Of a stretch of 64,000 nucleotides of DNA, positions 25,807 through 59,020 are shown piece by piece. Under the pieces are notes generated by a model. The model was not told the origin of the DNA, did not search any database, and saw only the letters and a list, made by a program, of their open reading frames with translations. Positions within the stretch are counted from its first letter, which is position 1. Each line of letters starts with the position of its first letter. A program made the translations under genes and the position numbers. Source of the stretch: Candidatus Moraniibacteriota bacterium (GTDB taxonomy: Bacteria; Patescibacteriota; Minisyncoccia; Moranbacterales; GCA-2747515); NCBI GenBank assembly GCA_046116545.1, contig CP175956.1, positions 1,025,734 through 1,089,733 of the forward strand, written 5' to 3'.

Positions 25807-25871
25807 TAACAAAAAAACAACTCCTATTAATGGGAGTTGTTTTTATATTGTTCTTTTTTTGCTCTAATTCA

Positions 25872-28202
25872 TTAGACTATAATATCCTTTCTAACGATTC
25901 CATCTTTAACACGTATTTCACCACGCTTTTCGAATTGTTTACCACTTATAGGCTGTCCTTTTGCCTTAATATTATATAATCCATTATCTGCAAGAAGATA
26001 ATACCTACCAATTGAATCTGTTACAGCAAATCCCTCTTTATAACTAGTTTCTTTTTTATAGAGATTAACAACAGCAAATGGAATTGGCTTTCCATCACTT
26101 GTTTCCACTACACCATATTTCTTTTTCTTAAAGAATTTTTGAAATATAAATAACACAACGTAGATACCAAGTACAACAAAATTAAATATTGACGGGTAAA
26201 AATAAGTAATTATTATAGTTGCACTAAATCCTATAACATAAATTGCTGTAAAAAAGTACTTTTTAAATATTGACCAGTTAGAATTATATTGTTTCTCCTT
26301 CTTAACAGCATATTCCTTCCAATCAATATTATCAGATTTCATAGCAATATTTGAAAGCATAACGTGATCTTCATTTATTTCAACTTCTCCTCCATCATAA
26401 ATATTTCCATACAATTCGTCATTAGAATCATTAGTCATTAATTTATAATCTTTTTTAGCTACGTTAATAATGTAATTTCCTGGACTTACTAAAAATCCAA
26501 ATCTACCATCTTTATCAGAATATGTTGTTGCCATCTCCTTGCCCATTGTATCCAAAAGTACAATCTTTACAGCTGGGATAGGAACTCTTGTTTCACTATC
26601 AAATACAACTCCCCAATTTCTTTCTTCCTTACGCCTTCCTATTATTCCAAATAATTCCAAAAATTGTAAAAATACAGTACTACTAAATGCTCCTGGCATA
26701 GCTGCAAATAACGGTATCGAAGATCCAGCTAGTGCAGCCGTTGTCCCAGCTACAGCTCCTACAGTAGCAGCAGTTTGATATGTTCTCTTAGTTTCCTCTG
26801 GGGCTATAGTTTCTCTAGCTTTTTCTTTTTTTACACTCTCACCAACATACGAATCATCCGCTTCATCTAACTCTTCTTCCAATTTATCTTCTAGTTCTTC
26901 TTCATCTACATCAGTAGAACCACCTGAAATATCACAAGCTCCTATATAATCACCATGATCCAAATGCTCTTGAAGTGATAATTCTGCAATTGAAATAGTA
27001 TCACCCTTGTGACAAATAATAATCTTTTTACCTTCAACTTGTGTACATGCACCAACAGTAGCTCCTTGATCTAAATAAGTCTGCAATTCTGATTGCAAAA
27101 CAATTATTGTAATTCCATCTGAACAGATTTCAACTGTGGGATCTGGAATACTTACAGTATTTGTAGTTGCACTTTTTGAACTTGAATACTCACTTTCATA
27201 ATCCTCACCATCAAGAGAATATTTAACCTTAAATGTATATTCTGTTCCCGAATTAAGTCCAGTTAATCCCAAAACCACCTCGCCACTACCATCTGTTTTT
27301 TTACTAAAATCAACTGTAAATGTATTTCCGGTTAATTCATTTTTTATATGAACAATAAAATCCAAATCTTCATCTTGTCTGTCACTAACTTCAACAATAA
27401 TATCTAGTGAACTAGTTGTGATATTATCAATGCTTTTAATTTCAGGATCAGACAAATCTTCTTCATCTTTAATAGTCGTTATAGTTTTTGAATTCGAATA
27501 CTCACTAAAATTCAAACTTCCATTTCTAGTATATTTAACCTTAAATGTATATTCTGTATCAGGATCCAAACTATCCATATTAAGTATCACATTACTTCCA
27601 GTAATATTTTTTGTCATTTGTACAGTATATGAACCTCCGCCGCTAACTTCAACAATAAAATCCATAAAACTTCCTATAAAACTAGGATCAATTGCTACAT
27701 TCAAGTCTACTGTATTAATAGTAACATCATCAATAGAACTAAGAACTGGTGCGTTAATTAATGTTGTAGCACTGTCCATATCAGAATCACCACTAAAAAC
27801 TCCACCCGGCCTAGAATATCTCACATTAAACTCATATTCCGTTCCCGGATCTAGCCCTGTCACATTTAAAATAGTTTGTGCATTAGAGTCAGTTCCCTGT
27901 GTATAATTAGCACTTGAGACATCTCCTGAAACAACATTTGTAATCGTCACAACATAATCAAGTATTTCATTTGCATAACCACTGTATGTATTTTCAACTT
28001 CAGTAAGTAAATCTAGGGAATTTGTAGTTACATTATCTATACTAATAATAGATGGAGTTGCTGGAACAACAACCAAACTATTATCTACAGTCACACCTAA
28101 ATTTTGACCAGCGTTCTGAGTAGCTGCCTCAACATTAGAAAATACACCTACAATAACAAAAAATAAAATTGTTATAATGACTTTTTCAAAAATTTTTTTC
28201 AT
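25872..28202 (-). CDS. Large multi-domain membrane protein. Domain order: signal peptide, 3 Fn3-like repeats, a duplicated Cys/His motif, an acidic linker, a TM helix, a CarboxypepD_reg-like domain, a TM hairpin, and a second CarboxypepD_reg-like domain
   Basis: Three ~95-aa repeats (SIDNVTTNSLDLL…, SIDDVTINTVDLNV…, SIDNITTSSLDIIV…). Motifs ICSDGITIIVLQSELQTYLDQGATVGAC and ICHKGDTISIAELSLQEHLDHGDYIGAC. Regulatory-domain-like segments RVPIPAVKIVLLDTMGKEMATTYSDKDGRFGF and GKPIPFAVVNLYKKETSYKEGFAVTDSIGRYYL. Confidence 0.6.
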   Translation of the reverse strand: MKKIFEKVIITILFFVIVGVFSNVEAATQNAGQNLGVTVDNSLVVVPATPSIISIDNVTTNSLDLLTEVENTYSGYANEILDYVVTITNVVSGDVSSANYTQGTDSNAQTILNVTGLDPGTEYEFNVRYSRPGGVFSGDSDMDSATTLINAPVLSSIDDVTINTVDLNVAIDPSFIGSFMDFIVEVSGGGSYTVQMTKNITGSNVILNMDSLDPDTEYTFKVKYTRNGSLNFSEYSNSKTITTIKDEEDLSDPEIKSIDNITTSSLDIIVEVSDRQDEDLDFIVHIKNELTGNTFTVDFSKKTDGSGEVVLGLTGLNSGTEYTFKVKYSLDGEDYESEYSSSKSATTNTVSIPDPTVEICSDGITIIVLQSELQTYLDQGATVGACTQVEGKKIIICHKGDTISIAELSLQEHLDHGDYIGACDISGGSTDVDEEELEDKLEEELDEADDSYVGESVKKEKARETIAPEETKRTYQTAATVGAVAGTTAALAGSSIPLFAAMPGAFSSTVFLQFLELFGIIGRRKEERNWGVVFDSETRVPIPAVKIVLLDTMGKEMATTYSDKDGRFGFLVSPGNYIINVAKKDYKLMTNDSNDELYGNIYDGGEVEINEDHVMLSNIAMKSDNIDWKEYAVKKEKQYNSNWSIFKKYFFTAIYVIGFSATIIITYFYPSIFNFVVLGIYVVLFIFQKFFKKKKYGVVETSDGKPIPFAVVNLYKKETSYKEGFAVTDSIGRYYLLADNGLYNIKAKGQPISGKQFEKRGEIRVKDGIVRKDIIV

Positions 28203-28372
28203 ATTTTTTTATTTAATTTACATCTTTTTAAATTATAACATTTTTAAATAACTTTGCACACCAAAACTCTCAAAATTAACATATATTATATATACTTGAT
28301 TTTTTATAAAAACACTGTTACAATAATTCCCGTACTAAAGAAACAACAATTTATCAGACCTTGCTATAAAAA

Positions 28373-28444
28373 GGTCCGGTCGTCTAGTGGTTAGGACGCC
28401 AGGTTTTCATCCTGGTAACCGGAGTTCGATTCTCCGTCGGACTA
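28373..28444 (+). tRNA. tRNA-Glu (anticodon UUC)
   Basis: Manual fold: acceptor GGTCCGG/TCGGACT (G·U at both ends), D arm GTCT…GGAC, anticodon stem CCAGG/CCTGG with loop TTTTCAT, T arm CGGAG-TTCGATT-CTCCG and discriminator A. The 5' half closely resembles E. coli tRNA-Glu. Confidence 0.85.
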
Positions 28445-28464
28445 CAAATGTGCACTATTTTTAA

Positions 28465-28515: not shown

Positions 28516-31230
28516 CTATTGATAATACCCACTAGCATCAGAAGTGGCTGTGTATGTCACAGATCCAGTATAAACTCCTGAAGGTTGTGATGGTGATACA
28601 TCTACTTTGTAACATACATCAGTTGTTGATGAAGTTGAATTATATGCTGTGTATGCTGCTATTGCTTGAGCTGTTTGTGGTACACCTGCATATTCTGCAT
28701 CATCATTTGTTGTTCCTTCTTCACACAGATCTCCTGAGGTTGTCCATATGTTATTGAAGGTGTTATGAGTTGTATCATTTTGTGGAAATTGTATTACTGA
28801 GAAACCTAAACCTTTTGTTGTTGGAGCGTTCCAAGATTCTGTTACTTTTGTTGTTTGATCAAATTGTGTTAGGTCTGGTATTTCATCTGTATTATTTGAA
28901 TGTACTAGGGTTGTATTTGAAGCTCCATTATCATTTATCATTGATAAATAATAACCTTGGGTATCATTTGTTGTTACTATACAAGTTGATTCTCCTACTG
29001 CTGGAGTTCCTGCTATTACTATTCCTGGGTTTGCTACTGTTCCTAGTATTACATCATAATCTCCTGTTGATCCATCTTTATCATAACAATCCATTGATAG
29101 GGTTGCATTTACTTCTACATTTAGGTTTAGGTCATCTATTCCTGATATTGTTCCATCTCCGTTTACAATATAAGTTGTTGCATGGTTTGTTGTGAATGTA
29201 CATATTCCGTTTGTTACTGTACATGTTGTATGGGTATTCCATGTTACTTCTCCTTCTAGTTGTGAAAGGACTTCTAGTTCCATATCATTGTAAGCTTCGC
29301 TTACAGTTATTTCCATTGTTATATTTTGTGAAAAAGATAGGTTTTCATTTGGTATACCTAGTCTTACTGCTCCTATTGCATTTGGATGATCTCCTTTTTC
29401 TTCTGATAGTGTATTCTCTGTTATGAAGTTTTCAAAGTTAAAGTTTTGATTCAAGCTTTCGGTTATTACTGTATTATTTGGGAATATCGCATTTGTTGTA
29501 TTTGATTGGAAGGTTACTTGTACTTGGGTTGTTGTTTGGGTTGCGTTGTCTATTGTTCCGTTATCTACTGAGATGTAGCCATTTGTTTCTAAATCACTCA
29601 TATCTGTTGTACTTGGATCTGGAATTGTTTGATTTGTTAATGGATTTGTTGTGAAACTTTGTTCTTCTCCATATACGATTCCTTTTTCATTTGTTGCTTT
29701 TGCTCTTATGTAATATGTTGTGTTTGGCGTTAGGCTTGTTAGGTCACAAGAGTATGTTCCTAATGCTCCTACACCTGCGGTGCAGTCATCAGTGTAAGTT
29801 TCACTTACTGTTCCCCATTGGATTTCTCTTGTTGGATTCTCTGTTCCTATATCTGTTATATTTGCATTTCCTATTGCCGATGTAGTTCCTATATTATTTG
29901 TTGTGTTTGTTATTGTTTGAGCTTTGTTTGTTAGGAAGTGGATGTGGATTGCACCTCTATTTATTCCTCCTGCGTCATCATCAGGAACACCAACTGCAAT
30001 ATCTTGAATACCATCATCATTAACATCACCTATATATGCAATATTTCTTCCATAACGATCATCATTTACAAGTGTTGGACCATTTATTGTATTAGAATTA
30101 ACTTCAACCGTTGATTTTACCGAACCATCCATATTCATAAAATGAATATGGATTGTGCCACGATCTGTACCAGCTGCATCATCCAAATAAGCTCCTACTG
30201 CAATATCTTCTGCACCATCATTATTAAGATCTCCTATACCCGCAACTGACACACCATAAAGATCACTGTCTGCAAGATTTGGACCATTTGTTGTTGTACT
30301 ATCAATTTTTATAGTTGAATCAATAGAGCCATCTGTATTCATAAAATGAATATAGATTGCACCACGATCCGTTCCATTTGTATCATCACGATAAGCTCCT
30401 ACTGCAATATCTTGTACACCATCATTATTAAGGTCTCCTATACCAGTAACTGCTATACCATAACGATCATCATTTACAAGTGTTGGACCATTTGTTGTTG
30501 TGTCATTTATTTCTACGGTTGAATCAATAGAGCCATCTGTATTCATAAAGTGAATATATATTGTTCCTCTATTTTCACCACCCGCATCATCACGATAAGC
30601 ACCTGATGCAATATCTTGCACTCCATCACCATTAATGTCTCCTATACCCGCAACTGTTACACCATAATAATCATAATCTACAAGATTTGGACCATTTGTT
30701 GTTGTGTCATCTATTTCTACAGTAGAATCAATAGAGCCATCTGTATTCATAAAGTGAATATGAACAGCTCCAGAATCTACATTCCCACCTGAATCATCAC
30801 GATAAGCTCCTACTGCAATATCTTGTACACCATCATTATTAAGGTCTCCTATACCGGTAACTGATATACCATAACGATCACCATTTACAAGTGTTGGACC
30901 ATTTGTTGTTGCATCATTTATTTCTACAGTAGAATCAATAGAGCCATCTGCATTCATAAAATGAATATATATCGCACCACGTTCCGCTCCGTTTGCATCA
31001 TCAAAATACGCACCCACTGCAATATCTTGTACACCATCATTATTAAGGTCTCCTATACCCGCAACTGTTACACCATAATAATCAGAATCTAATAAAACTG
31101 GACCATTTGTAGTCAGATCATTAATCTCCACAGTAGAATCAATAGATCCATCTCCTACAGCAAGTGTTGTTTGTGTATAAAAAAGTGTAGCAATAAATGC
31201 TACCGAAAGTATTATAATATTATTTTTCAT
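28516..31230 (-). CDS. Secreted surface protein, paralog 2. Domain order: signal peptide, 7 FG-GAP repeats (integrin-alpha-like beta-propeller), an Fn3-like domain, and the conserved C-terminal domain
   Basis: 904 aa. A ~68-aa unit YG.SV.GIGDLNNDGVQDIAVGAY.DD.GG…G.IHIHFMN.DGS occurs 7 times. An Fn3-like segment reads YSCDLTSLTPNTTYYIRAKATNEKG. The C-terminal ~285 aa are nearly identical to paralogs 1 and 3. Confidence 0.75.
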   Translation of the reverse strand: MKNNIIILSVAFIATLFYTQTTLAVGDGSIDSTVEINDLTTNGPVLLDSDYYGVTVAGIGDLNNDGVQDIAVGAYFDDANGAERGAIYIHFMNADGSIDSTVEINDATTNGPTLVNGDRYGISVTGIGDLNNDGVQDIAVGAYRDDSGGNVDSGAVHIHFMNTDGSIDSTVEIDDTTTNGPNLVDYDYYGVTVAGIGDINGDGVQDIASGAYRDDAGGENRGTIYIHFMNTDGSIDSTVEINDTTTNGPTLVNDDRYGIAVTGIGDLNNDGVQDIAVGAYRDDTNGTDRGAIYIHFMNTDGSIDSTIKIDSTTTNGPNLADSDLYGVSVAGIGDLNNDGAEDIAVGAYLDDAAGTDRGTIHIHFMNMDGSVKSTVEVNSNTINGPTLVNDDRYGRNIAYIGDVNDDGIQDIAVGVPDDDAGGINRGAIHIHFLTNKAQTITNTTNNIGTTSAIGNANITDIGTENPTREIQWGTVSETYTDDCTAGVGALGTYSCDLTSLTPNTTYYIRAKATNEKGIVYGEEQSFTTNPLTNQTIPDPSTTDMSDLETNGYISVDNGTIDNATQTTTQVQVTFQSNTTNAIFPNNTVITESLNQNFNFENFITENTLSEEKGDHPNAIGAVRLGIPNENLSFSQNITMEITVSEAYNDMELEVLSQLEGEVTWNTHTTCTVTNGICTFTTNHATTYIVNGDGTISGIDDLNLNVEVNATLSMDCYDKDGSTGDYDVILGTVANPGIVIAGTPAVGESTCIVTTNDTQGYYLSMINDNGASNTTLVHSNNTDEIPDLTQFDQTTKVTESWNAPTTKGLGFSVIQFPQNDTTHNTFNNIWTTSGDLCEEGTTNDDAEYAGVPQTAQAIAAYTAYNSTSSTTDVCYKVDVSPSQPSGVYTGSVTYTATSDASGYYQ

Positions 31231-31444: not shown

Positions 31445-32041
31445 CTAAAATTTTTCTGACTCTAACACTATTAATAACAATTTCTTTTTTGCTCTTCTTA
31501 ATAACGTCCCAACACTACTAGTTGGTTTATTTAAAATTTCACTTATTTCAGTATATGATTTGTCTTCAAAATATCTTAATGTTATGACTTGTGCATAATT
31601 TTCTGGTAATTGAGCTACAGCATCTTCTAATTCACCCCTTAACTCAATTTGAAACCATTCATCTAAAGTCGTACTGGTTTTATCTGATATCTCTATATTA
31701 TCCTTTACTGAATCAACCTCTTCTATTGATATAGTTTTCCTTTTATTACTTCTATTAAACCAATTCATTGTTTCATTATGAGCAATTCTATAAATCCATG
31801 ATGAAAACTTTTTTTCACAATCAAATGAATCGATATGCTTTAATGTTTTTATAAAAACATTTTGAACTAAATCCTTCGATTCATCTGAATTATTCACAAA
31901 ACGCATTACGTAATAAAATAATTTTTTCTCATACCTTTTTATTATCACATCAAAACATGCAGTATTTCCATTTTGAACCATTCTCACTATTTCATTATCA
32001 TCAACACTTTCATCACAACCAAAAATTTCTTTTTTATTCAT
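31445..32041 (-). CDS. RNA polymerase ECF-type sigma-70 factor
   Basis: Region 2 (DLVQNVFIKTLKHIDSFD…FSSWIYRIAHNETMNW) and region 4 (SYTEISEILNKPTSSVGTLLRRAKKKL). Confidence 0.8.
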   Translation of the reverse strand: MNKKEIFGCDESVDDNEIVRMVQNGNTACFDVIIKRYEKKLFYYVMRFVNNSDESKDLVQNVFIKTLKHIDSFDCEKKFSSWIYRIAHNETMNWFNRSNKRKTISIEEVDSVKDNIEISDKTSTTLDEWFQIELRGELEDAVAQLPENYAQVITLRYFEDKSYTEISEILNKPTSSVGTLLRRAKKKLLLIVLESEKF

Positions 32042-52304: not shown

Positions 52305-55013
52305 CTACTGATAAAACCCACTAGCATCAGAAGTAGCAGTATAAGTTACTGAACCTGTATATACTCCTGAAGGTTGTGATGGTGATACATCAACTTTGTA
52401 ACATACATCAGTTGTTGTTGAAGTTGAATTATATGCTGTGTATGCTGCTATTGCTTGAGCTGTTTGTGGTACACCTGCATATTCTGCATCATCATTTGTT
52501 GTTCCTTCTTCACACAGATCTCCTGAGGTTGTCCATATGTTATTGAAGGTGTTATGAGTTGTATCATTTTGTGGAAATTGTATTACTGAGAAACCTAAAC
52601 CTTTTGTTGTTGGAGCGTTCCAAGATTCTGTTACTTTTGTTGTTTGATCAAATTGTGTTAGGTCTGGTATTTCATCTGTATTATTTGAATGTACTAGGGT
52701 TGTATTTGAAGCTCCATTATCATTTATCATTGATAAATAATAACCTTGGGTATCATTTGTTGTTACTATACAAGTTGATTCTCCTACTGCTGGAGTTCCT
52801 GCTATTACTATTCCTGGGTTTGCTACTGTTCCTAGTATTACATCATAATCTCCTGTTGATCTATCTTTATCATAACAATCCATTGATAGAGTTGCATTTA
52901 CTTCTACATTTAGGTTTAGGTCATCTATTCCTGATATTGTTCCATCTCCGTTTACAATATAAGTTGTTGCATGGTTTGTTGTGAATGTACATATTCCGTT
53001 TGTTACTGTACATGTTGTATGGGTATTCCATGTAGTAGATCCTTCTAGTTGTGAGAGAACTTCTAGTTCCATATCATTGTAAGCTTCGCTTACATTCATT
53101 TCTATTGTTATATCATTTGAGAAACTTAGGTTTTCATTTGGTATACCTAGTCTTACTGCTCCTATAGCATTTGGGTGTTCTACTTTTTCACTTGTTAAAG
53201 TATTTTGTGTTATGAAGTTTTGGAAGTTGAAGAGTCCTGCACTTGCTTCAGTTATTACAGTACTTGTTGGAAATATTGCATTTGTTGTTGGTGATTGGAA
53301 AGTTATTTGTTCATTTGTTGTTGTTTGTGTTGTATTGTCTAAAGTTCCATTATCTACTGTTATGTAACCATTTGTTGTTAGATCATCCATATCTATTGTA
53401 TCTGGATCTATAACTATTTGGCTTGTTAATGCATTTGTTGTAAAACTTTGTTCTTGACCATATACTATTCCTTTTTCATTTGTTGCTTTTGCTCTTATGT
53501 AATATGTTGTGTCTGGAGTTAAATCAGTCATATCACAGGAGTAACTTCCTGTGCCTCCAGTTCCTGCGGTGCAGTCATCAGTGTAAGTTTTACTTACTGT
53601 TCCCCATTCTATTTCTCTTGTAGGATTTTGAGTTCCTATATCTGTTATTTCTGCGTTTCCTATTGCTGTTGTTGTTCCTATTGTTGAAGTTGTATCTGTT
53701 TGAGTTTGAGCTTTGTTTGTTAAGAAATGGATGTGGATTGCTCCTCTGTCTATTCCTCCTGCGTCATCATAACGCGCAGTAACAATAAGATCTTGAACGC
53801 CATCATTATTAAGATCACCTATATTTGTGATGGACGCACTATAAAGATCTGCATCAGAAAGCACTGGACCATTTGTAGTATTATCATTAATTTCTACTGT
53901 TGATTTAACTGAACCATCCGTATTCATAAAGTGAATATGTATCGTACCACGATTTGCACCACCAGCATCATCAAGATATGCACCTACTGCAATATCTTGT
54001 ACACCGTCACCATCGAGGTCCCCCATATTTACAATAGACTCACCATAATAATCCGAGTCTGCTAAATCAGGTCCATTTACTGTTAAATCATTAATCTCTA
54101 CTGTTGATTTAACCGAACCATCTGTATTCATAAAGTGAATATGTATCGTACCACGACTTGTACCATTCAAACTATCATAAACTGCACCTACGGCAATATC
54201 ATTTACACCATCATTATTAAGATCACCTATATTTGCAACAGATTCTCCATATTGATCACCATCGAGAGTAGGTCCATTTATAGTTAAATGATTAATTTCT
54301 ATAGTAGAATCTATAGAACCATCTGTATTCATGAAATGTATGTGTACCGTACCATTATTAATTCCACCAGTATCATCACCAGTTGCTCCAACCATAATAT
54401 CCTCAACACTATCATTATTAAGATCGCCCAAATTTTCAATAGATATACCATAAAGATCACCATCAGACAATGTTGGACCATTTATAGTGCTATCATTAAT
54501 CTTTACAGTTGAATCAATTGAACCATCTGTATTCATAAAGTGAATATATACTGCACCCTGATCTGTACCTCCTGTGTCATCACGATATGATCCAACCGTA
54601 ATATCTTGTACACCATCATTATTCAAATCATTCAAATTTGCAATAGCATATCCATATCTATCACCATCTGAAAGCACTGGTCCATTTATTGTTAAATGAT
54701 TTATTTCTACAGTGGATTTAACAGAACCATCTATATTCATGAAATGAATATGTACTGCACCGCGATCTGTACCTCCTGCATCATCATAAAATGCCCCAAT
54801 AGCAATATCATCCACACCATCACCATCAAGATCACCAATGTTTTCAACAGCTGATCCATATGAATCCGAATCATTAAGCACTGGTCCATTTGTTGTTAAA
54901 TCATTTATTTCGATAGTTGAGTCTATTGAGCCGTCTCCTGCTGCAAAAGTTGATTGTGAACAAAAAAGTGTAGCAATAAATGCTATTGAAATTATAATTA
55001 GATTATTTTTCAT
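52305..55013 (-). CDS. Secreted surface protein, paralog 3. Domain order: signal peptide, 7 FG-GAP-like repeats, an Fn3-like domain, and the conserved C-terminal domain
   Basis: 902 aa. It has the same architecture as 28516..31230. The last ~370 aa are nearly identical to paralog 2, and the last ~285 aa are nearly identical to paralog 1. Confidence 0.75.
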   Translation of the reverse strand: MKNNLIIISIAFIATLFCSQSTFAAGDGSIDSTIEINDLTTNGPVLNDSDSYGSAVENIGDLDGDGVDDIAIGAFYDDAGGTDRGAVHIHFMNIDGSVKSTVEINHLTINGPVLSDGDRYGYAIANLNDLNNDGVQDITVGSYRDDTGGTDQGAVYIHFMNTDGSIDSTVKINDSTINGPTLSDGDLYGISIENLGDLNNDSVEDIMVGATGDDTGGINNGTVHIHFMNTDGSIDSTIEINHLTINGPTLDGDQYGESVANIGDLNNDGVNDIAVGAVYDSLNGTSRGTIHIHFMNTDGSVKSTVEINDLTVNGPDLADSDYYGESIVNMGDLDGDGVQDIAVGAYLDDAGGANRGTIHIHFMNTDGSVKSTVEINDNTTNGPVLSDADLYSASITNIGDLNNDGVQDLIVTARYDDAGGIDRGAIHIHFLTNKAQTQTDTTSTIGTTTAIGNAEITDIGTQNPTREIEWGTVSKTYTDDCTAGTGGTGSYSCDMTDLTPDTTYYIRAKATNEKGIVYGQEQSFTTNALTSQIVIDPDTIDMDDLTTNGYITVDNGTLDNTTQTTTNEQITFQSPTTNAIFPTSTVITEASAGLFNFQNFITQNTLTSEKVEHPNAIGAVRLGIPNENLSFSNDITIEMNVSEAYNDMELEVLSQLEGSTTWNTHTTCTVTNGICTFTTNHATTYIVNGDGTISGIDDLNLNVEVNATLSMDCYDKDRSTGDYDVILGTVANPGIVIAGTPAVGESTCIVTTNDTQGYYLSMINDNGASNTTLVHSNNTDEIPDLTQFDQTTKVTESWNAPTTKGLGFSVIQFPQNDTTHNTFNNIWTTSGDLCEEGTTNDDAEYAGVPQTAQAIAAYTAYNSTSTTTDVCYKVDVSPSQPSGVYTGSVTYTATSDASGFYQ

Positions 55014-55437: not shown

Positions 55438-55554
55438 ACTGTTCCCAGCATTGACCTACTCTCCCTCATAGAGGTACCATCGGCGCTGATAGGCTTAACT
55501 GCTGAGTTCGGTATGGGATCAGGTGTGACCCTATCGCCAAAAACACTGGAAACA
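55438..55554 (-). rRNA. rrf: 5S ribosomal RNA
   Basis: The reverse complement contains GGTCACACCTGATCCCATACCGAACTCAG…GCGCCGATGGTA…GAGAGTAGG. Helix I is TGTTTCCAG/CTGGGAACA. Confidence 0.8.
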
Positions 55555-55784
55555 CTATATTCAAAATGTGCATATAATTAGTTTTTATCACAATTCAAAG
55601 AATTATGATAAATATCAGGAGAGAAACAACGAGTATTTGTGACTAAACAACCTTCTCATTCTTTAGTTTATACATTTAACATGCATAAATATCTTTAAGT
55701 TTCTCTTAATTGTCAACTCAATTATAGACAATTTTCATCTGTTTACAAATAAATTTATAAACAAGACAAAGAAGAAATAAAAGA

Positions 55785-59020
<3,236 letters not shown>

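What the first reader, a model, noticed from the sequence alone, without database searches (positions are those of the whole stretch)
25872..28202. Unusual domain architecture: extracellular Fn3×3 and a duplicated Cys/His motif, joined through TM segments to two CarboxypepD_reg-like domains on alternating sides of the membrane
After three Fn3-like repeats come two copies of a ~30-aa motif, IC(S/H)xG(I/D)TI…(Y/H)LDxG(A/D)x(V/I)GAC. A poly-D/E linker follows, then a TM helix, a basic stop-transfer sequence, a carboxypeptidase-regulatory-like beta-sandwich, a TM hairpin, and a second such beta-sandwich. I do not recognise this combination. The paired Cys/His motif could bind metal or form disulfides.
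Basis: partly seen in the sequence, partly recalled or inferred. Interest (0 to 1): 0.55.

Follow-up and report, generated by a model that had tools for sequence, protein, structure and literature searches.

The report
Surface protein with uncharted membrane anchor
This gene encodes a cell-surface protein of an ultra-small (Patescibacteria) bacterium, and its unrecognised C-terminal half is a widespread but undescribed membrane-anchor module that this bacterial group attaches to many different surface proteins.

Summary
The 776-aa ORF (25872-28202, minus strand) is real. Its listed parts are confirmed: signal peptide, three Fn3 domains, two Cys-bounded ~30-aa motifs, an acidic linker, hydrophobic segments and two CarboxypepD_reg beta-sandwiches.

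- The beta-sandwiches are separated by a tight two-helix hairpin, so they lie on the same side of the membrane, not on alternating sides. Charge bias, Cys parity and module-only paralogs all point to the cytoplasm.
- The architecture is not a one-off. Nineteen full-length orthologs exist in Ca. Moraniibacteriota.

The last ~310 aa form a portable module that always sits at the extreme C-terminus. It occurs in over a thousand 50%-identity protein clusters; every source name that gives an organism is patescibacterial. It is fused to Fn3, beta-propeller or GloVer ectodomains, or stands alone. No Pfam model, NCBIfam model, PDB structure or paper found here covers it as a unit.

The Cys motif is a separate, widespread, uncurated mini-domain (CH...TI...HLxHGDxxGxC; at least 334 metagenome loci). 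Both Cys are invariant, which suggests a disulfide. The His/His/His/Asp block is kept in copy 2 and lost as a unit in copy 1.

Best reading: a surface adhesin or stalk protein held by a new kind of polytopic anchor. Moderately interesting.

The parts
28125..28202 (-). Signal peptide (residues 1-26; n-region MKKIFEK, hydrophobic core, VEA|A cleavage-type site)
   Evidence: Read from the sequence. The Kyte-Doolittle 19-residue window peaks at 2.37, and the V-x-A-A site is conserved in the orthologs. No signal-peptide predictor was available, so cleavage is inferred.
28062..28124 (-). Conserved N-terminal peptide (residues 27-47, ...GQNLGVTVDNSLVVVP...)
   Evidence: 65% mean identity among 19 orthologs, higher than the Fn3 domains. 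V37, D40, N41 and P47 are invariant. AlphaFold pLDDT is below 50. Function unknown.
27762..28061 (-). Fn3 domain 1 (residues ~48-147)
   Evidence: Pfam fn3 best stretch 50-130; AlphaFold beta-sandwich at pLDDT ~90.
27474..27755 (-). Fn3 domain 2 (residues ~150-243)
   Evidence: Pfam fn3 (3 stretches) and Interfer-bind 195-236; AlphaFold pLDDT ~90.
27162..27449 (-). Fn3 domain 3 (residues ~252-347)
   Evidence: Pfam fn3 and Arylsulfotran_N Ig-like 262-339; AlphaFold pLDDT ~88.
27045..27134 (-). Cys-bounded mini-domain, copy 1 (residues 357-386, VEICSDGITIIVLQSELQTYLDQGATVGAC). Degenerate type: His/His/His/Asp replaced by S/Y/Q/A.
   Evidence: AlphaFold predicts a beta-hairpin (356-369) plus a helix (370-378) at pLDDT 60-80.
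26934..27023 (-). Cys-bounded mini-domain, copy 2 (residues 394-423, IIICHKGDTISIAELSLQEHLDHGDYIGAC). Canonical CH...HLxHGDxxGxC type.
   Evidence: The same motif occurs in at least 334 metagenome loci. AlphaFold predicts a hairpin (393-406) plus a helix (407-415).
26799..26933 (-). Acidic, poorly conserved linker (residues 424-468)
   Evidence: Residues 425-477 have net charge -12. Only 24% mean identity among orthologs. pLDDT below 50.
26712..26798 (-). Module helix A (residues ~469-497). Ala/Gly-rich hydrophobic helix, the proposed outside-to-inside membrane span.
   Evidence: AlphaFold predicts a long helix in both models, 469-500 and 469-495. Across the family the KD 19-window maximum averages 1.77 and exceeds 1.6 in 70% of members. 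Helix A is absent from module-only proteins that have no ectodomain.
26637..26711 (-). Module helix B (residues ~498-522, AAMPGAFSSTVFLQFLELFGIIG). The most conserved segment; probably interfacial or re-entrant on the cytoplasmic face.
   Evidence: 74% identity among orthologs. KD maximum averages 1.35 and is TM-grade in only 34% of members. AlphaFold shows short broken helices at low confidence. Its disposition is inferred.
26328..26636 (-). Basic cluster RRKEER followed by W-G, then beta-sandwich 1 (residues 523-625, CarboxypepD_reg / transthyretin-like)
   Evidence: Pfam PF13620 best stretch 531-588. pLDDT above 90 in the module model. Foldseek matches carboxypeptidase D, SdrD B, CnaB and transthyretin. 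W530 and G531 are invariant.
26262..26327 (-). Basic amphipathic helix before the hairpin (residues 626-647)
   Evidence: AlphaFold helix 628-640. Family mean of 4.8 K/R in 21 residues. Hydrophobic moment 0.32 with mean hydrophobicity -0.22.
26133..26261 (-). Transmembrane hairpin C-D (residues 648-690) with a tight Y-P-S turn (P670 and N674 invariant)
   Evidence: KD maxima 1.87 and 2.12. AlphaFold helices 642-668 and 672-691 at pLDDT above 90. The turn carries almost no charge across the family.
25875..26132 (-). KKKK cluster plus beta-sandwich 2 (residues 691-776, CarboxypepD_reg-like), ending at the protein's C-terminus
   Evidence: Second Pfam PF13620 stretch. pLDDT above 90. Net charge +8. 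The module ends at the protein C-terminus in 142 of 142 full-length module hits (median 0 residues after it).
25813..25844 (.). Bidirectional terminator-like hairpin shared with the convergent SLT/LysM gene
   Evidence: 12-14 bp stem with T-runs on both strands.

Best explanation
The gene encodes a cell-surface protein of a Ca. Moraniibacteriota (Patescibacteria/CPR) bacterium.

Shown:
- A Sec-type signal peptide is followed by a rod of three Fn3 domains, two small Cys-bounded beta-hairpin-plus-helix mini-domains and an acidic linker.
- The last ~310 residues are a portable, strongly conserved module found at the extreme C-terminus of many patescibacterial proteins. It consists of two adjoining hydrophobic segments (A, B), a basic cluster followed by W-G, a transthyretin-like beta-sandwich, a basic amphipathic helix, a tight two-helix membrane hairpin, a second basic cluster and a second beta-sandwich.
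- In other proteins the module is fused to quite different ectodomains, or it stands alone.

Inferred:
- The Fn3 rod and mini-domains are outside the cell.
- Helix A crosses the membrane once, from outside to inside.
- Helix B lies in or on the inner leaflet.
- The C-D hairpin dips out and back.
- Both beta-sandwiches therefore sit together on the cytoplasmic face. The module then acts as a bulky polytopic anchor that holds a variable ectodomain on the cell. Its conserved cytoplasmic domains may also connect the ectodomain to something inside, such as oligomerisation partners or envelope-synthesis or signalling proteins.
- Each mini-domain is most likely stapled by a Cys-Cys disulfide.
- The canonical copy 2 additionally keeps a His/His/His/Asp site that may bind metal. 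Copy 1 has lost that site.
For: Architecture:
- establish the parts.

Orthologs and conservation:
- 19 full-length orthologs at 43-62% identity share the same layout.
- Among them the module segments are 53-74% identical, the Fn3 domains 48-58%, and the linker 24%.

Portability of the module:
- A profile of the module searched against 1.84 billion representative proteins gave 12,697 hits at E<=1e-3 and 1,578 at E<=1e-30.
- 142 of the 169 retrieved sequences carry the full-length module. It is always C-terminal (median 0 residues after it), with 2 to 3,682 residues before it.
- Ectodomains include fn3, SBBP and NHL propellers, Vgb_lyase-like domains and 'choice-of-anchor' GloVer repeats.
- Every source name that gives an organism is patescibacterial: Paceibacterota, Moraniibacteriota, Doudnabacteria. 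Three ortholog MAGs in the genome scan are labelled Micavibrio.
- The module model is confident: pLDDT 85, pTM 0.66, and above 90 from residue 526 onward.

Same side and cytoplasmic:
- In 114 non-orthologous members the flanks next to the domains carry 4.0, 4.8 and 2.5 K/R. The A-B junction carries 0.04 and the C-D turn 0.23.
- Ectodomains are acidic (-8 per 100 aa; -43 in this protein), while beta-sandwich 2 is basic.
- Among Cys-containing ectodomains the Cys count is even in 81 and odd in 13. Beta-sandwich 1 has no Cys in 106 of 114 members, and beta-sandwich 2 has a single unpaired Cys in 34 of 114.
- Module-only proteins P0246 and P0251 have no TM-grade segment before beta-sandwich 1 (KD maxima 0.93 and 1.24) and a K/R-rich N-terminus. 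Upstream genes abut their start codons, so the ORFs are complete.
- P0240 has an N-terminal TM followed by RRR and then a non-hydrophobic B segment.

Mini-domain:
- Both Cys are invariant in 33 of 33 copies.
- The H/H/H/D positions change as a block: 10 copies are CHHHDC, about 19 have all four positions changed, and 4 are intermediate.
- The motif is widespread and often at the C-terminus of other proteins.
Against: - CarboxypepD_reg, CnaB and SdrD-B type beta-sandwiches are typically extracytoplasmic. The best structural matches are surface adhesins.
- In most family members A and B look like a ~22+22-residue helical hairpin with a short acidic loop. If both span the membrane, beta-sandwich 1 would be outside in proteins whose N-terminal region is outside.
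- B reaches TM-grade hydrophobicity in 34% of members. Its hydrophobic moment of 0.29 does not decide the matter.
- AlphaFold confidence for A and B is low, and model coordinates could not be inspected.
- No dedicated topology predictor was available.
- No direct evidence exists for adhesion, for the disulfide, or for any cytoplasmic partner.
- Conserved synteny here may only reflect close relatedness of the genomes.
Confidence: 0.65

Rival explanations
1. All-outside topology. Helices A and B both span as a hairpin, and so do C and D. Both beta-sandwiches then lie on the outer face of the membrane, under the Fn3 stalk. There they bind the cell wall or another envelope polymer, tying the membrane, the wall and the surface protein together.
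For: - Transthyretin-like, CnaB and SdrD-B folds are usually extracellular.
- A and B resemble a helical hairpin of two ~22-residue hydrophobic stretches.
- The neighbourhood is envelope-themed: an SLT/LysM lytic transglycosylase, a VTT/DedA-family protein and GT4 glycosyltransferases.
Against: - About 11 K/R would sit on the outside against about 0.3 on the inside, a strong violation of the positive-inside rule across 114 members.
- The A-B loop is acidic with essentially no K/R.
- Module-only proteins have no exportable segment before beta-sandwich 1.
- The module carries unpaired single Cys, while the ectodomains carry paired Cys.
Confidence: 0.17
2. Signalling receptor or non-canonical anti-sigma factor. 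The Fn3 ectodomain senses a surface cue and the cytoplasmic beta-sandwiches control the ECF-type sigma factor encoded upstream, or in paralogs a neighbouring response regulator or kinase.
For: - An ECF-like sigma-70 gene (31445-32041) lies upstream on the same strand. It is directly adjacent in P0017's genome, and it is also present upstream of the ortholog in L008 and L010.
- Module paralogs lie next to a single-domain response regulator in three loci. One of those also has a histidine kinase next to the module gene.
Against: - No anti-sigma domain was detected, and the N-terminus is a signal peptide.
- In this window a 904-aa FG-GAP gene and an oppositely oriented tRNA-Glu separate the sigma gene from the target. 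The target ends at its own terminator, so co-transcription is unlikely.
- The synteny block also contains housekeeping genes (tsaD, valS), so it may be plain lineage synteny.
- The module occurs on many different proteins, with at least two genes per genome in three MAGs.
Confidence: 0.08
3. Elongasome-coupled anchor. The cytoplasmic beta-sandwiches dock onto the MreB/MreC/MreD/PBP2 machinery, so that surface proteins carrying the module are positioned or moved by cell-wall synthesis.
For: - Module-only genes sit right after mreC-(176-aa ORF with no Pfam hit)-PBP2 in one genome (L098) and after mreD-PBP2-folD in another (L099).
- P0020 (GloVer ectodomain plus module) follows mreB-mreC directly (L105).
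- That is 3 of the 10 distinct contexts examined.
Against: - No mre or PBP2 genes were found near the target or its Moraniibacteriota orthologs and paralogs in the DNA held here.
- Other paralogs sit next to ribosomal-protein, RNR or ATP-synthase genes.
- L098 and L099 are the same conserved locus, so there are only two independent associations.
Confidence: 0.08
4. Assembly or gene-calling artefact that fuses a secreted Fn3 protein to an unrelated membrane protein.
For: None beyond the unfamiliar architecture.
Against: The same end-to-end architecture occurs in 19 orthologs from independent assemblies in NCBI, JGI, ENA and Logan. The frame is uninterrupted.
Confidence: 0.01

Closest known systems
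Gram-positive MSCRAMM / CnaB-type adhesins (such as SdrD and UafA) anchored by LPXTG and sortase
   Same: Both are modular surface proteins: signal peptide, a rod of Ig-like or Fn3-like beta-sandwiches, and a C-terminal hydrophobic segment followed by a basic cluster. The module's beta-sandwiches are structurally closest to SdrD B, CnaB and carboxypeptidase D regulatory domains.
   Different: There is no LPXTG motif. The anchor is a ~310-aa polytopic module rather than a ~35-aa sorting signal. Its beta-sandwiches lie after the first membrane segment and are predicted to be cytoplasmic. Covalent attachment to the wall is not implied.
Portable C-terminal sorting/anchor signals (PEP-CTERM/exosortase, PGF-CTERM/archaeosortase, T9SS CTD) and Haft's 'choice-of-anchor' domains
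   Same: A conserved C-terminal element is swapped onto many unrelated ectodomains within one lineage. One module-bearing relative (P0020) carries the NCBIfam 'choice-of-anchor' GloVer repeat. A hydrophobic helix followed by a basic cluster is part of the element.
   Different: The module is about ten times larger and contains two folded domains and three or four hydrophobic helices. The hydrophobic-plus-basic unit is internal, not terminal. There is no PEP or PGF motif and no NCBIfam hit. No dedicated sorting enzyme is known or evident.
Pfam CarboxypepD_reg (PF13620) / transthyretin-like beta-sandwich domains
   Same: Both C-terminal domains match the model above its gathering score and match the fold.
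   Different: The Pfam family describes a single soluble domain. It does not describe the conserved arrangement with helices A and B, the basic clusters, the amphipathic helix and the membrane hairpin.
Archaeal S-layer stalk protein SlaB (PDB 8qox_B)
   Same: A membrane-anchored protein built of beta-sandwich domains that holds surface structures. It is a weak Foldseek hit (E 4e-4).
   Different: SlaB has a single C-terminal TM helix and extracellular beta-sandwiches plus a coiled coil. The query TM-score is only 0.19, and no sequence relationship is evident.

Membership tests
fn3 (PF00041) | Profile score above Pfam's gathering threshold | tested here: met
   49.3 bits against a cutoff of 25, in three stretches.
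fn3 (PF00041) | Seven-strand beta-sandwich fold of ~90-100 aa | tested here: met
   AlphaFold predicts three beta-sandwiches over residues 48-347 at pLDDT ~90. PDB sequence hits are to Fn3 domains of Tie2 and LIFR and to FN3con.
CarboxypepD_reg (PF13620) | Profile score above the gathering threshold | tested here: met
   50 bits against a cutoff of 32.3, in two stretches; best stretch 531-588.
CarboxypepD_reg (PF13620) | Transthyretin-like / prealbumin-like beta-sandwich fold | tested here: met
   Foldseek hits to carboxypeptidase D (3mn8), transthyretin and HIU hydrolase at probability 1.0 and rmsd 3-4 A, from a model with pLDDT above 90.
LPXTG sortase-anchored surface protein | LPXTG-type motif followed by a TM helix and a basic tail at the extreme C-terminus | tested here: not met
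   No LPxTG-like motif anywhere in the protein. About 250 residues follow the first hydrophobic-plus-basic unit.
PEP-CTERM / PGF-CTERM type sorting signals | Short terminal signature motif, TM helix and Arg-rich cluster; an NCBIfam model hit | tested here: not met
   No PEP, PGF or PEF motif and no NCBIfam family at E<=10.
T9SS C-terminal domain (TIGR04183) | Terminal beta-sandwich matching Por_Secre_tail, in an organism with an outer membrane and T9SS | tested here: not met
   The query has no NCBIfam hit. Relatives P0020 and P0073 give only partial 27.5-27.6-bit matches inside beta-sandwich 1, which is not terminal. Presence of T9SS genes was not examined.
ECF anti-sigma factor | N-terminal cytoplasmic anti-sigma domain (zf-HC2 / RskA type) followed by a TM helix | tested here: not met
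   No such Pfam domain at E<=10, and the N-terminus is a signal peptide.
ECF anti-sigma factor | Co-transcription with the sigma factor gene | tested here: inconclusive
   A sigma gene lies upstream on the same strand and is adjacent in some orthologs. In this window an FG-GAP gene and an opposite-strand tRNA-Glu separate them.
Patescibacterial C-terminal two-beta-sandwich membrane module (unnamed; defined here) | End-to-end profile match located at the extreme C-terminus | tested here: met
   The local hmmsearch matches profile positions 2-312 to the last residues of the ORF at E 1e-163. This is circular, because the query was used to build the profile. The independent test is that relatives built on unrelated ectodomains match end to end.
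Patescibacterial C-terminal two-beta-sandwich membrane module (unnamed; defined here) | Basic cluster plus invariant W-G before beta-sandwich 1; hairpin with a P...N turn; basic cluster before beta-sandwich 2 | tested here: met
   RRKEERNWG at 523-531, YPSIFN at 669-674, KKKK at 693-696. W, G, P and N are invariant or nearly so across divergent members.
Patescibacterial C-terminal two-beta-sandwich membrane module (unnamed; defined here) | Both beta-sandwiches cytoplasmic | not testable with these tools
   Only indirect evidence: charge bias, Cys parity and module-only paralogs. Reporter fusions or accessibility mapping are needed.
CH...HLxHGDxxGxC mini-domain (unnamed; uncurated) | Cys at both ends of a ~27-35-aa unit | tested here: met
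   C360/C386 and C397/C423. Both Cys are invariant in 33 family copies and are present in nearly all metagenome copies listed.
CH...HLxHGDxxGxC mini-domain (unnamed; uncurated) | Conserved His after Cys1, His-Leu, and His-Gly-Asp | tested here: inconclusive
   Met in copy 2 (CH...EHLDHGD). Not met in copy 1 (CS...TYLDQGA).

The most novel reading that the evidence does not exclude
The conserved C-terminal module is not a passive anchor. It is a transmembrane coupling device specific to Patescibacteria. Its two cytoplasmic beta-sandwiches would dock onto intracellular machinery, such as the MreB/MreC/PBP2 elongasome or response-regulator signalling. That would let these minimal cells position, move or read out many interchangeable surface ectodomains through one shared adaptor. 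The module-only genes embedded in mre/PBP2 operons would be the ancestral core component.
Probability: 0.12. Interest if true: 0.8.

Novelty: new variant of a known kind. Interest (0 to 1): 0.5.

Why it matters
Patescibacteria (CPR) are a large, mostly uncultured part of bacterial diversity, and many live attached to host cells. How they display and hold their surface proteins is largely unknown.

This finding points to two building blocks that have no Pfam or NCBIfam model, no matching whole-unit structure in the PDB, and no paper in the library searched:
- **A C-terminal membrane module of ~310 aa.** It is shared by more than a thousand protein clusters and probably has two cytoplasmic beta-sandwiches. 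Defining it would let many CPR proteins now labelled 'hypothetical' or 'carboxypeptidase regulatory-like' be annotated as membrane-anchored surface proteins, and would show which ectodomains these cells expose.
- **A small Cys-stapled CH...HGD mini-domain.** It is found in hundreds of metagenome loci well outside this family.

If the module also connects to cytoplasmic machinery, it would be a new way of linking surface to interior in minimal cells.

The protein itself is otherwise an ordinary-looking Fn3 stalk or adhesin.

Tried and rejected
- **Short motif profile against the 5.8-billion-protein index.** The third produced only 4 word-sharing candidates and no hits. This reflects the word index, not absence of the motif: a degenerate-DNA scan of metagenomes later found at least 334 loci.
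- **Motif profile against PDB sequences.** Nothing meaningful.
- **Literature.** Searches for the module and for the motif returned nothing.
- **Genome-contig scan with the module profile.** It used a narrow peptide pattern and recovered only Moraniibacteriota-level relatives. It gives no broad taxonomic census.
- **Very short 'module-only' hits on short contigs (P0079, P0098, P0223 and others).** These could be truncated gene calls, so I did not use them for topology. Only P0246 and P0251, whose starts are constrained by upstream genes, and P0240 were used.
- **Hydrophobic moment of helix B.** It does not discriminate between an interfacial and a spanning helix.
- **Known anchor or regulator types.** Sortase, PEP-CTERM, PGF-CTERM and T9SS signals, and a canonical anti-sigma factor, were considered and rejected on motif and domain tests.
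- **Gene-fusion artefact.** Rejected because of the orthologs.
- **Mre/PBP2 linkage for this particular gene.** Rejected, because none of those genes occur in the window or in orthologous loci.


Full report
**1. The observation**

The window is AT-rich (about 32% GC). It carries one long ORF at 25872..28202 on the minus strand, 776 aa with an ATG start. Pfam finds fn3 in three stretches (49.3 bits, cutoff 25) and CarboxypepD_reg in two stretches (50 bits, cutoff 32.3). It finds nothing for residues ~350-530. NCBIfam finds nothing at all. PDB sequence search finds only weak Fn3 matches.

The sequence shows these features directly:
- An N-terminal signal-peptide-like segment (residues 1-26).
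- Exactly four Cys (360, 386, 397, 423), which bound two ~30-aa motif copies matching at 12 of 30 positions.
- A D/E-rich linker; residues 425-477 have net charge -12.
- A ~45-residue moderately hydrophobic stretch (478-522) followed by RRKEER.
- A strongly hydrophobic stretch (648-690) with a YPS break, followed by KKKK.

One inference in the title is not. Two helices joined by a three-residue turn return the chain to the same side of the membrane, so the two CarboxypepD_reg domains cannot be on alternating sides.

**2. Relatives and structure**

Nineteen full-length proteins at 43-62% identity share the whole architecture. Where named, they come from Patescibacteria / Ca. Moraniibacteriota. 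Conservation is uneven:
- The signal peptide (26%) and the acidic linker (24%) drift.
- The Fn3 domains are 48-58% identical.
- Most of the C-terminal part is 67-74% identical. Helix A is 56% and the helix before the hairpin 53%. Helix B (498-522) is the most conserved segment of all.

**3. The C-terminal half is a portable module**

Two distant hits of the first search, P0020 and P0022, share only the last ~310 residues with the query and have unrelated N-terminal regions. I built a profile of this region (A2) and searched it against 1.84 billion representative proteins. It returned 12,697 proteins at E<=1e-3, 5,432 at 1e-10 and 1,578 at 1e-30. Some of these are giant proteins with many CarboxypepD_reg repeats.

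Of the 169 sequences retrieved, 142 match the module end to end. In all of these it sits at the extreme C-terminus (median 0 residues after it), preceded by 2 to 3,682 residues. The consensus across 114 non-orthologous members keeps the same landmarks:
- two hydrophobic segments;
- a basic cluster followed by an invariant W-G;
- a 'TDxDGRYGF' beta-sandwich;
- 'FDWNEFAK';
- a hairpin with a P...N turn;
- a second basic cluster;
- a 'GRYY' beta-sandwich.

The N-terminal regions carry fn3, SBBP or NHL beta-propellers, Vgb_lyase-like domains, or the NCBIfam 'choice-of-anchor' GloVer repeat. Some proteins consist of the module alone. Every source name that gives an organism points to Patescibacteria: Paceibacterota, Moraniibacteriota, Doudnabacteria. 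Three ortholog MAGs in the genome scan are labelled Micavibrio. Three MAGs carry at least two module genes each. This window has one. Neither Pfam nor NCBIfam models the unit, and literature searches found nothing.

**4. Topology (inferred)**

The N-terminal region should be outside the cell. It follows a signal peptide, it is very acidic (-43), and in module-bearing relatives the ectodomain Cys count is even in 81 cases and odd in 13 among those with any Cys, which suggests disulfides. Several lines place both beta-sandwiches on the cytoplasmic side:
- **Charge bias.** The segments flanking the domains carry on average 4.0 K/R (8 residues after B), 4.8 (21 residues before C) and 2.5 (7 residues after D). 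The A-B junction carries 0.04 and the C-D turn 0.23.
- **Cys content.** Beta-sandwich 1 has no Cys in 106 of 114 members. Beta-sandwich 2 has a single unpaired Cys in 34 of 114.
- **Domain charge.** Beta-sandwich 2 is basic (+8 here).
- **Module-only proteins.** P0246 and P0251 lack helix A and have only a K/R-rich N-terminus and a weakly hydrophobic B segment (KD maxima 0.93 and 1.24) before beta-sandwich 1. Their start codons abut the upstream genes on 36-kb and 146-kb contigs, so the ORFs are complete. With no export signal, beta-sandwich 1 must be cytoplasmic in those proteins.
- **P0240.** It starts with a strong TM helix followed directly by RRR and a non-hydrophobic B segment.

The simplest model is that helix A spans from outside to inside, B lies in or on the inner leaflet, C-D is a hairpin, and both beta-sandwiches are cytoplasmic.

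The evidence on the other side is as follows. This fold is usually extracellular. A and B look like a 22+22-residue hairpin in most members. B is TM-grade in 34% of members, and its hydrophobic moment is indecisive. AlphaFold is unsure about A and B. I put about 0.8 on 'same side and cytoplasmic' and about 0.17 on 'same side and outside'. 'Alternating' is excluded unless C-D is not a hairpin, which the confident model and the invariant Pro and Asn argue against.

**5. The Cys/His motif**

Within the family the copy number varies from 0 (P0009) to 3 (P0010, P0019). Both Cys are invariant in all 33 copies. The four positions His (after Cys1), His (before Leu), His and Asp (in HGD) behave as a block. 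Ten copies are C-H-H-H-D-C, about nineteen have all four positions replaced (typically Y/S, Y, Q/R/D, A), and four are intermediate. Copy 2 of this protein is canonical and copy 1 is fully degenerate. Among the other module-bearing proteins retrieved, the motif occurs only in three further Fn3-type relatives (P0024, P0049, P0056), so it is not part of the anchor.

The motif is, however, widespread elsewhere. A degenerate-DNA scan of metagenome contigs with HL[DAG][HQ]GD[YT]xG[PA] gave more than 599 pattern matches. Of these, 334 were confirmed by tblastn over the whole Cys-to-Cys span. Almost all listed hits begin 'CH', although that was not in the search pattern. In 39 of 79 ORFs with a stop codon in the locus, the motif lies within 5 residues of the C-terminus, and sometimes it is tandem. 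The carriers include secreted proteins with DUF5666, PepSY-like or propeller regions. No Pfam model, NCBIfam model, PDB sequence or paper covers the motif.

My reading is that it is an extracellular mini-domain stapled by a disulfide, with an optional His3/Asp site that could bind a metal or a ligand. This family does not depend on that site.

**6. Context**

The target gene ends at a bidirectional terminator-like hairpin (25813-25844), which it shares with a convergent SLT/LysM lytic transglycosylase gene. Beyond that lie a VTT/DedA-family gene, an alpha/beta hydrolase and a GT4 glycosyltransferase. On the target's 5' side lie tRNA-Glu on the opposite strand (28373-28445), a 904-aa FG-GAP protein and an ECF-type sigma-70 gene. 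The order tsaD, sigma, (variable insert), target, SLT/LysM, VTT, hydrolase, GT4 is kept in orthologous loci. Because housekeeping genes belong to the same block, this may be lineage synteny rather than functional linkage. A canonical anti-sigma role is not supported, since there is no anti-sigma domain and the N-terminus is a signal peptide.

Paralogs in other Patescibacteria show a more suggestive pattern:
- Module-only genes follow mreC-(176-aa ORF with no Pfam hit)-PBP2 in L098 and mreD-PBP2-folD in L099.
- P0020 follows mreB-mreC.
- Others sit next to a histidine kinase, a response regulator and Peptidase_M50 upstream of rpsL-rpsG.
- Others lie between RNR and ATP-synthase genes.

No mre or PBP2 genes lie near the target or its close relatives. 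I treat a link to the elongasome or to signalling as a lead, not a finding.

**7. Comparison and verdict**

In function the protein resembles Gram-positive stalk adhesins and, more generally, proteins that carry a lineage-specific portable C-terminal anchor. It fails the defining tests of the LPXTG, PEP-CTERM, PGF-CTERM and T9SS systems. Its parts are bona fide fn3 and CarboxypepD_reg domains.

What is new is the conserved polytopic module as a unit, its probable cytoplasmic beta-sandwiches, and the uncurated mini-domain. I class it as a new variant of a known kind (surface-protein anchors), with moderate interest (0.5). The architecture is common in its lineage and the ectodomain is ordinary. 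The module is a large, unannotated and experimentally testable piece of CPR cell-envelope biology.

Noticed in passing
L098 3001-3921; L099 3001-3900; L105 4001-7282: Module genes sit in or next to elongasome operons in other Patescibacteria. The orders are mreC-(176-aa ORF)-PBP2-module-only gene-response regulator-secE-nusG (L098), mreD-PBP2-folD-module-only gene-response regulator-secE (L099), and mreB-mreC-P0020 (L105). In L105 the module gene occupies the position where mreD would be expected.
   Followed up: partly
L100 2913-3818; L101 820-1797; L102 876-2480: Other short module genes lie just upstream of rpsL-rpsG(-fusA). L100 and L102 have a Peptidase_M50 gene in between, and L102 also has a PAS histidine kinase and a single-domain response regulator. 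This is a second recurrent housekeeping neighbourhood.
   Followed up: no
window 28373-28445 (+): tRNA-Glu (anticodon TTC) lies on the opposite strand, between the FG-GAP gene and the target. The target therefore has its own promoter region (28203-28372).
   Followed up: yes
window 28516-31230 (-) and 52305-55013 (-): Two paralogous ~900-aa secreted proteins carry FG-GAP (integrin-like propeller) repeats and an Fn3-like region. Neither matches the C-terminal membrane module profile. They may be released or partner-bound surface proteins. In orthologous loci the first one is sometimes absent between the sigma gene and the target.
   Followed up: partly
window 55782-59018 (-), 55443-55550 (-): The 23S rRNA gene spans 3,237 nt against a 2,925-position Rfam model, so it carries roughly 300 nt of extra sequence (insertions or an intron). 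A 5S rRNA gene lies next to it. This explains the local GC peak of 0.45.
   Followed up: no
window 28062-28124 (-), residues 27-47: The peptide right after the signal peptide (GQNLGVTVDN...VVVP) is more conserved (65%) than the Fn3 domains, yet AlphaFold leaves it unstructured. It may be a recognition or strand-donation element.
   Followed up: no
L008, L010, L011, L017 (record titles): Several MAGs labelled 'Micavibrio sp.' carry genes at 47-54% identity to the target. L008 and L010 also share the Moraniibacteriota-like gene order around the target. These bins are probably mislabelled Patescibacteria.
   Followed up: no
L018-L097 (metagenome loci): The CH...TI...HLxHGDxxGxC mini-domain often forms the last residues of otherwise unrelated secreted proteins, for example DUF5666-repeat proteins that end '...HGDTLGACP'. 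A variant has an insertion, 'CHIPPGNPxxxHTI'. Its terminal position suggests a role of its own, such as a sorting, capping or metal-binding tail.
   Followed up: partly
L103 5752-8154; L104 5744-8368: In two genomes the ~540-aa module proteins are followed by three consecutive ORFs with no Pfam hits (275-358, 318-358 and 175 aa), located between RNR and ATP synthase genes. This may be a conserved unknown gene set.
   Followed up: no
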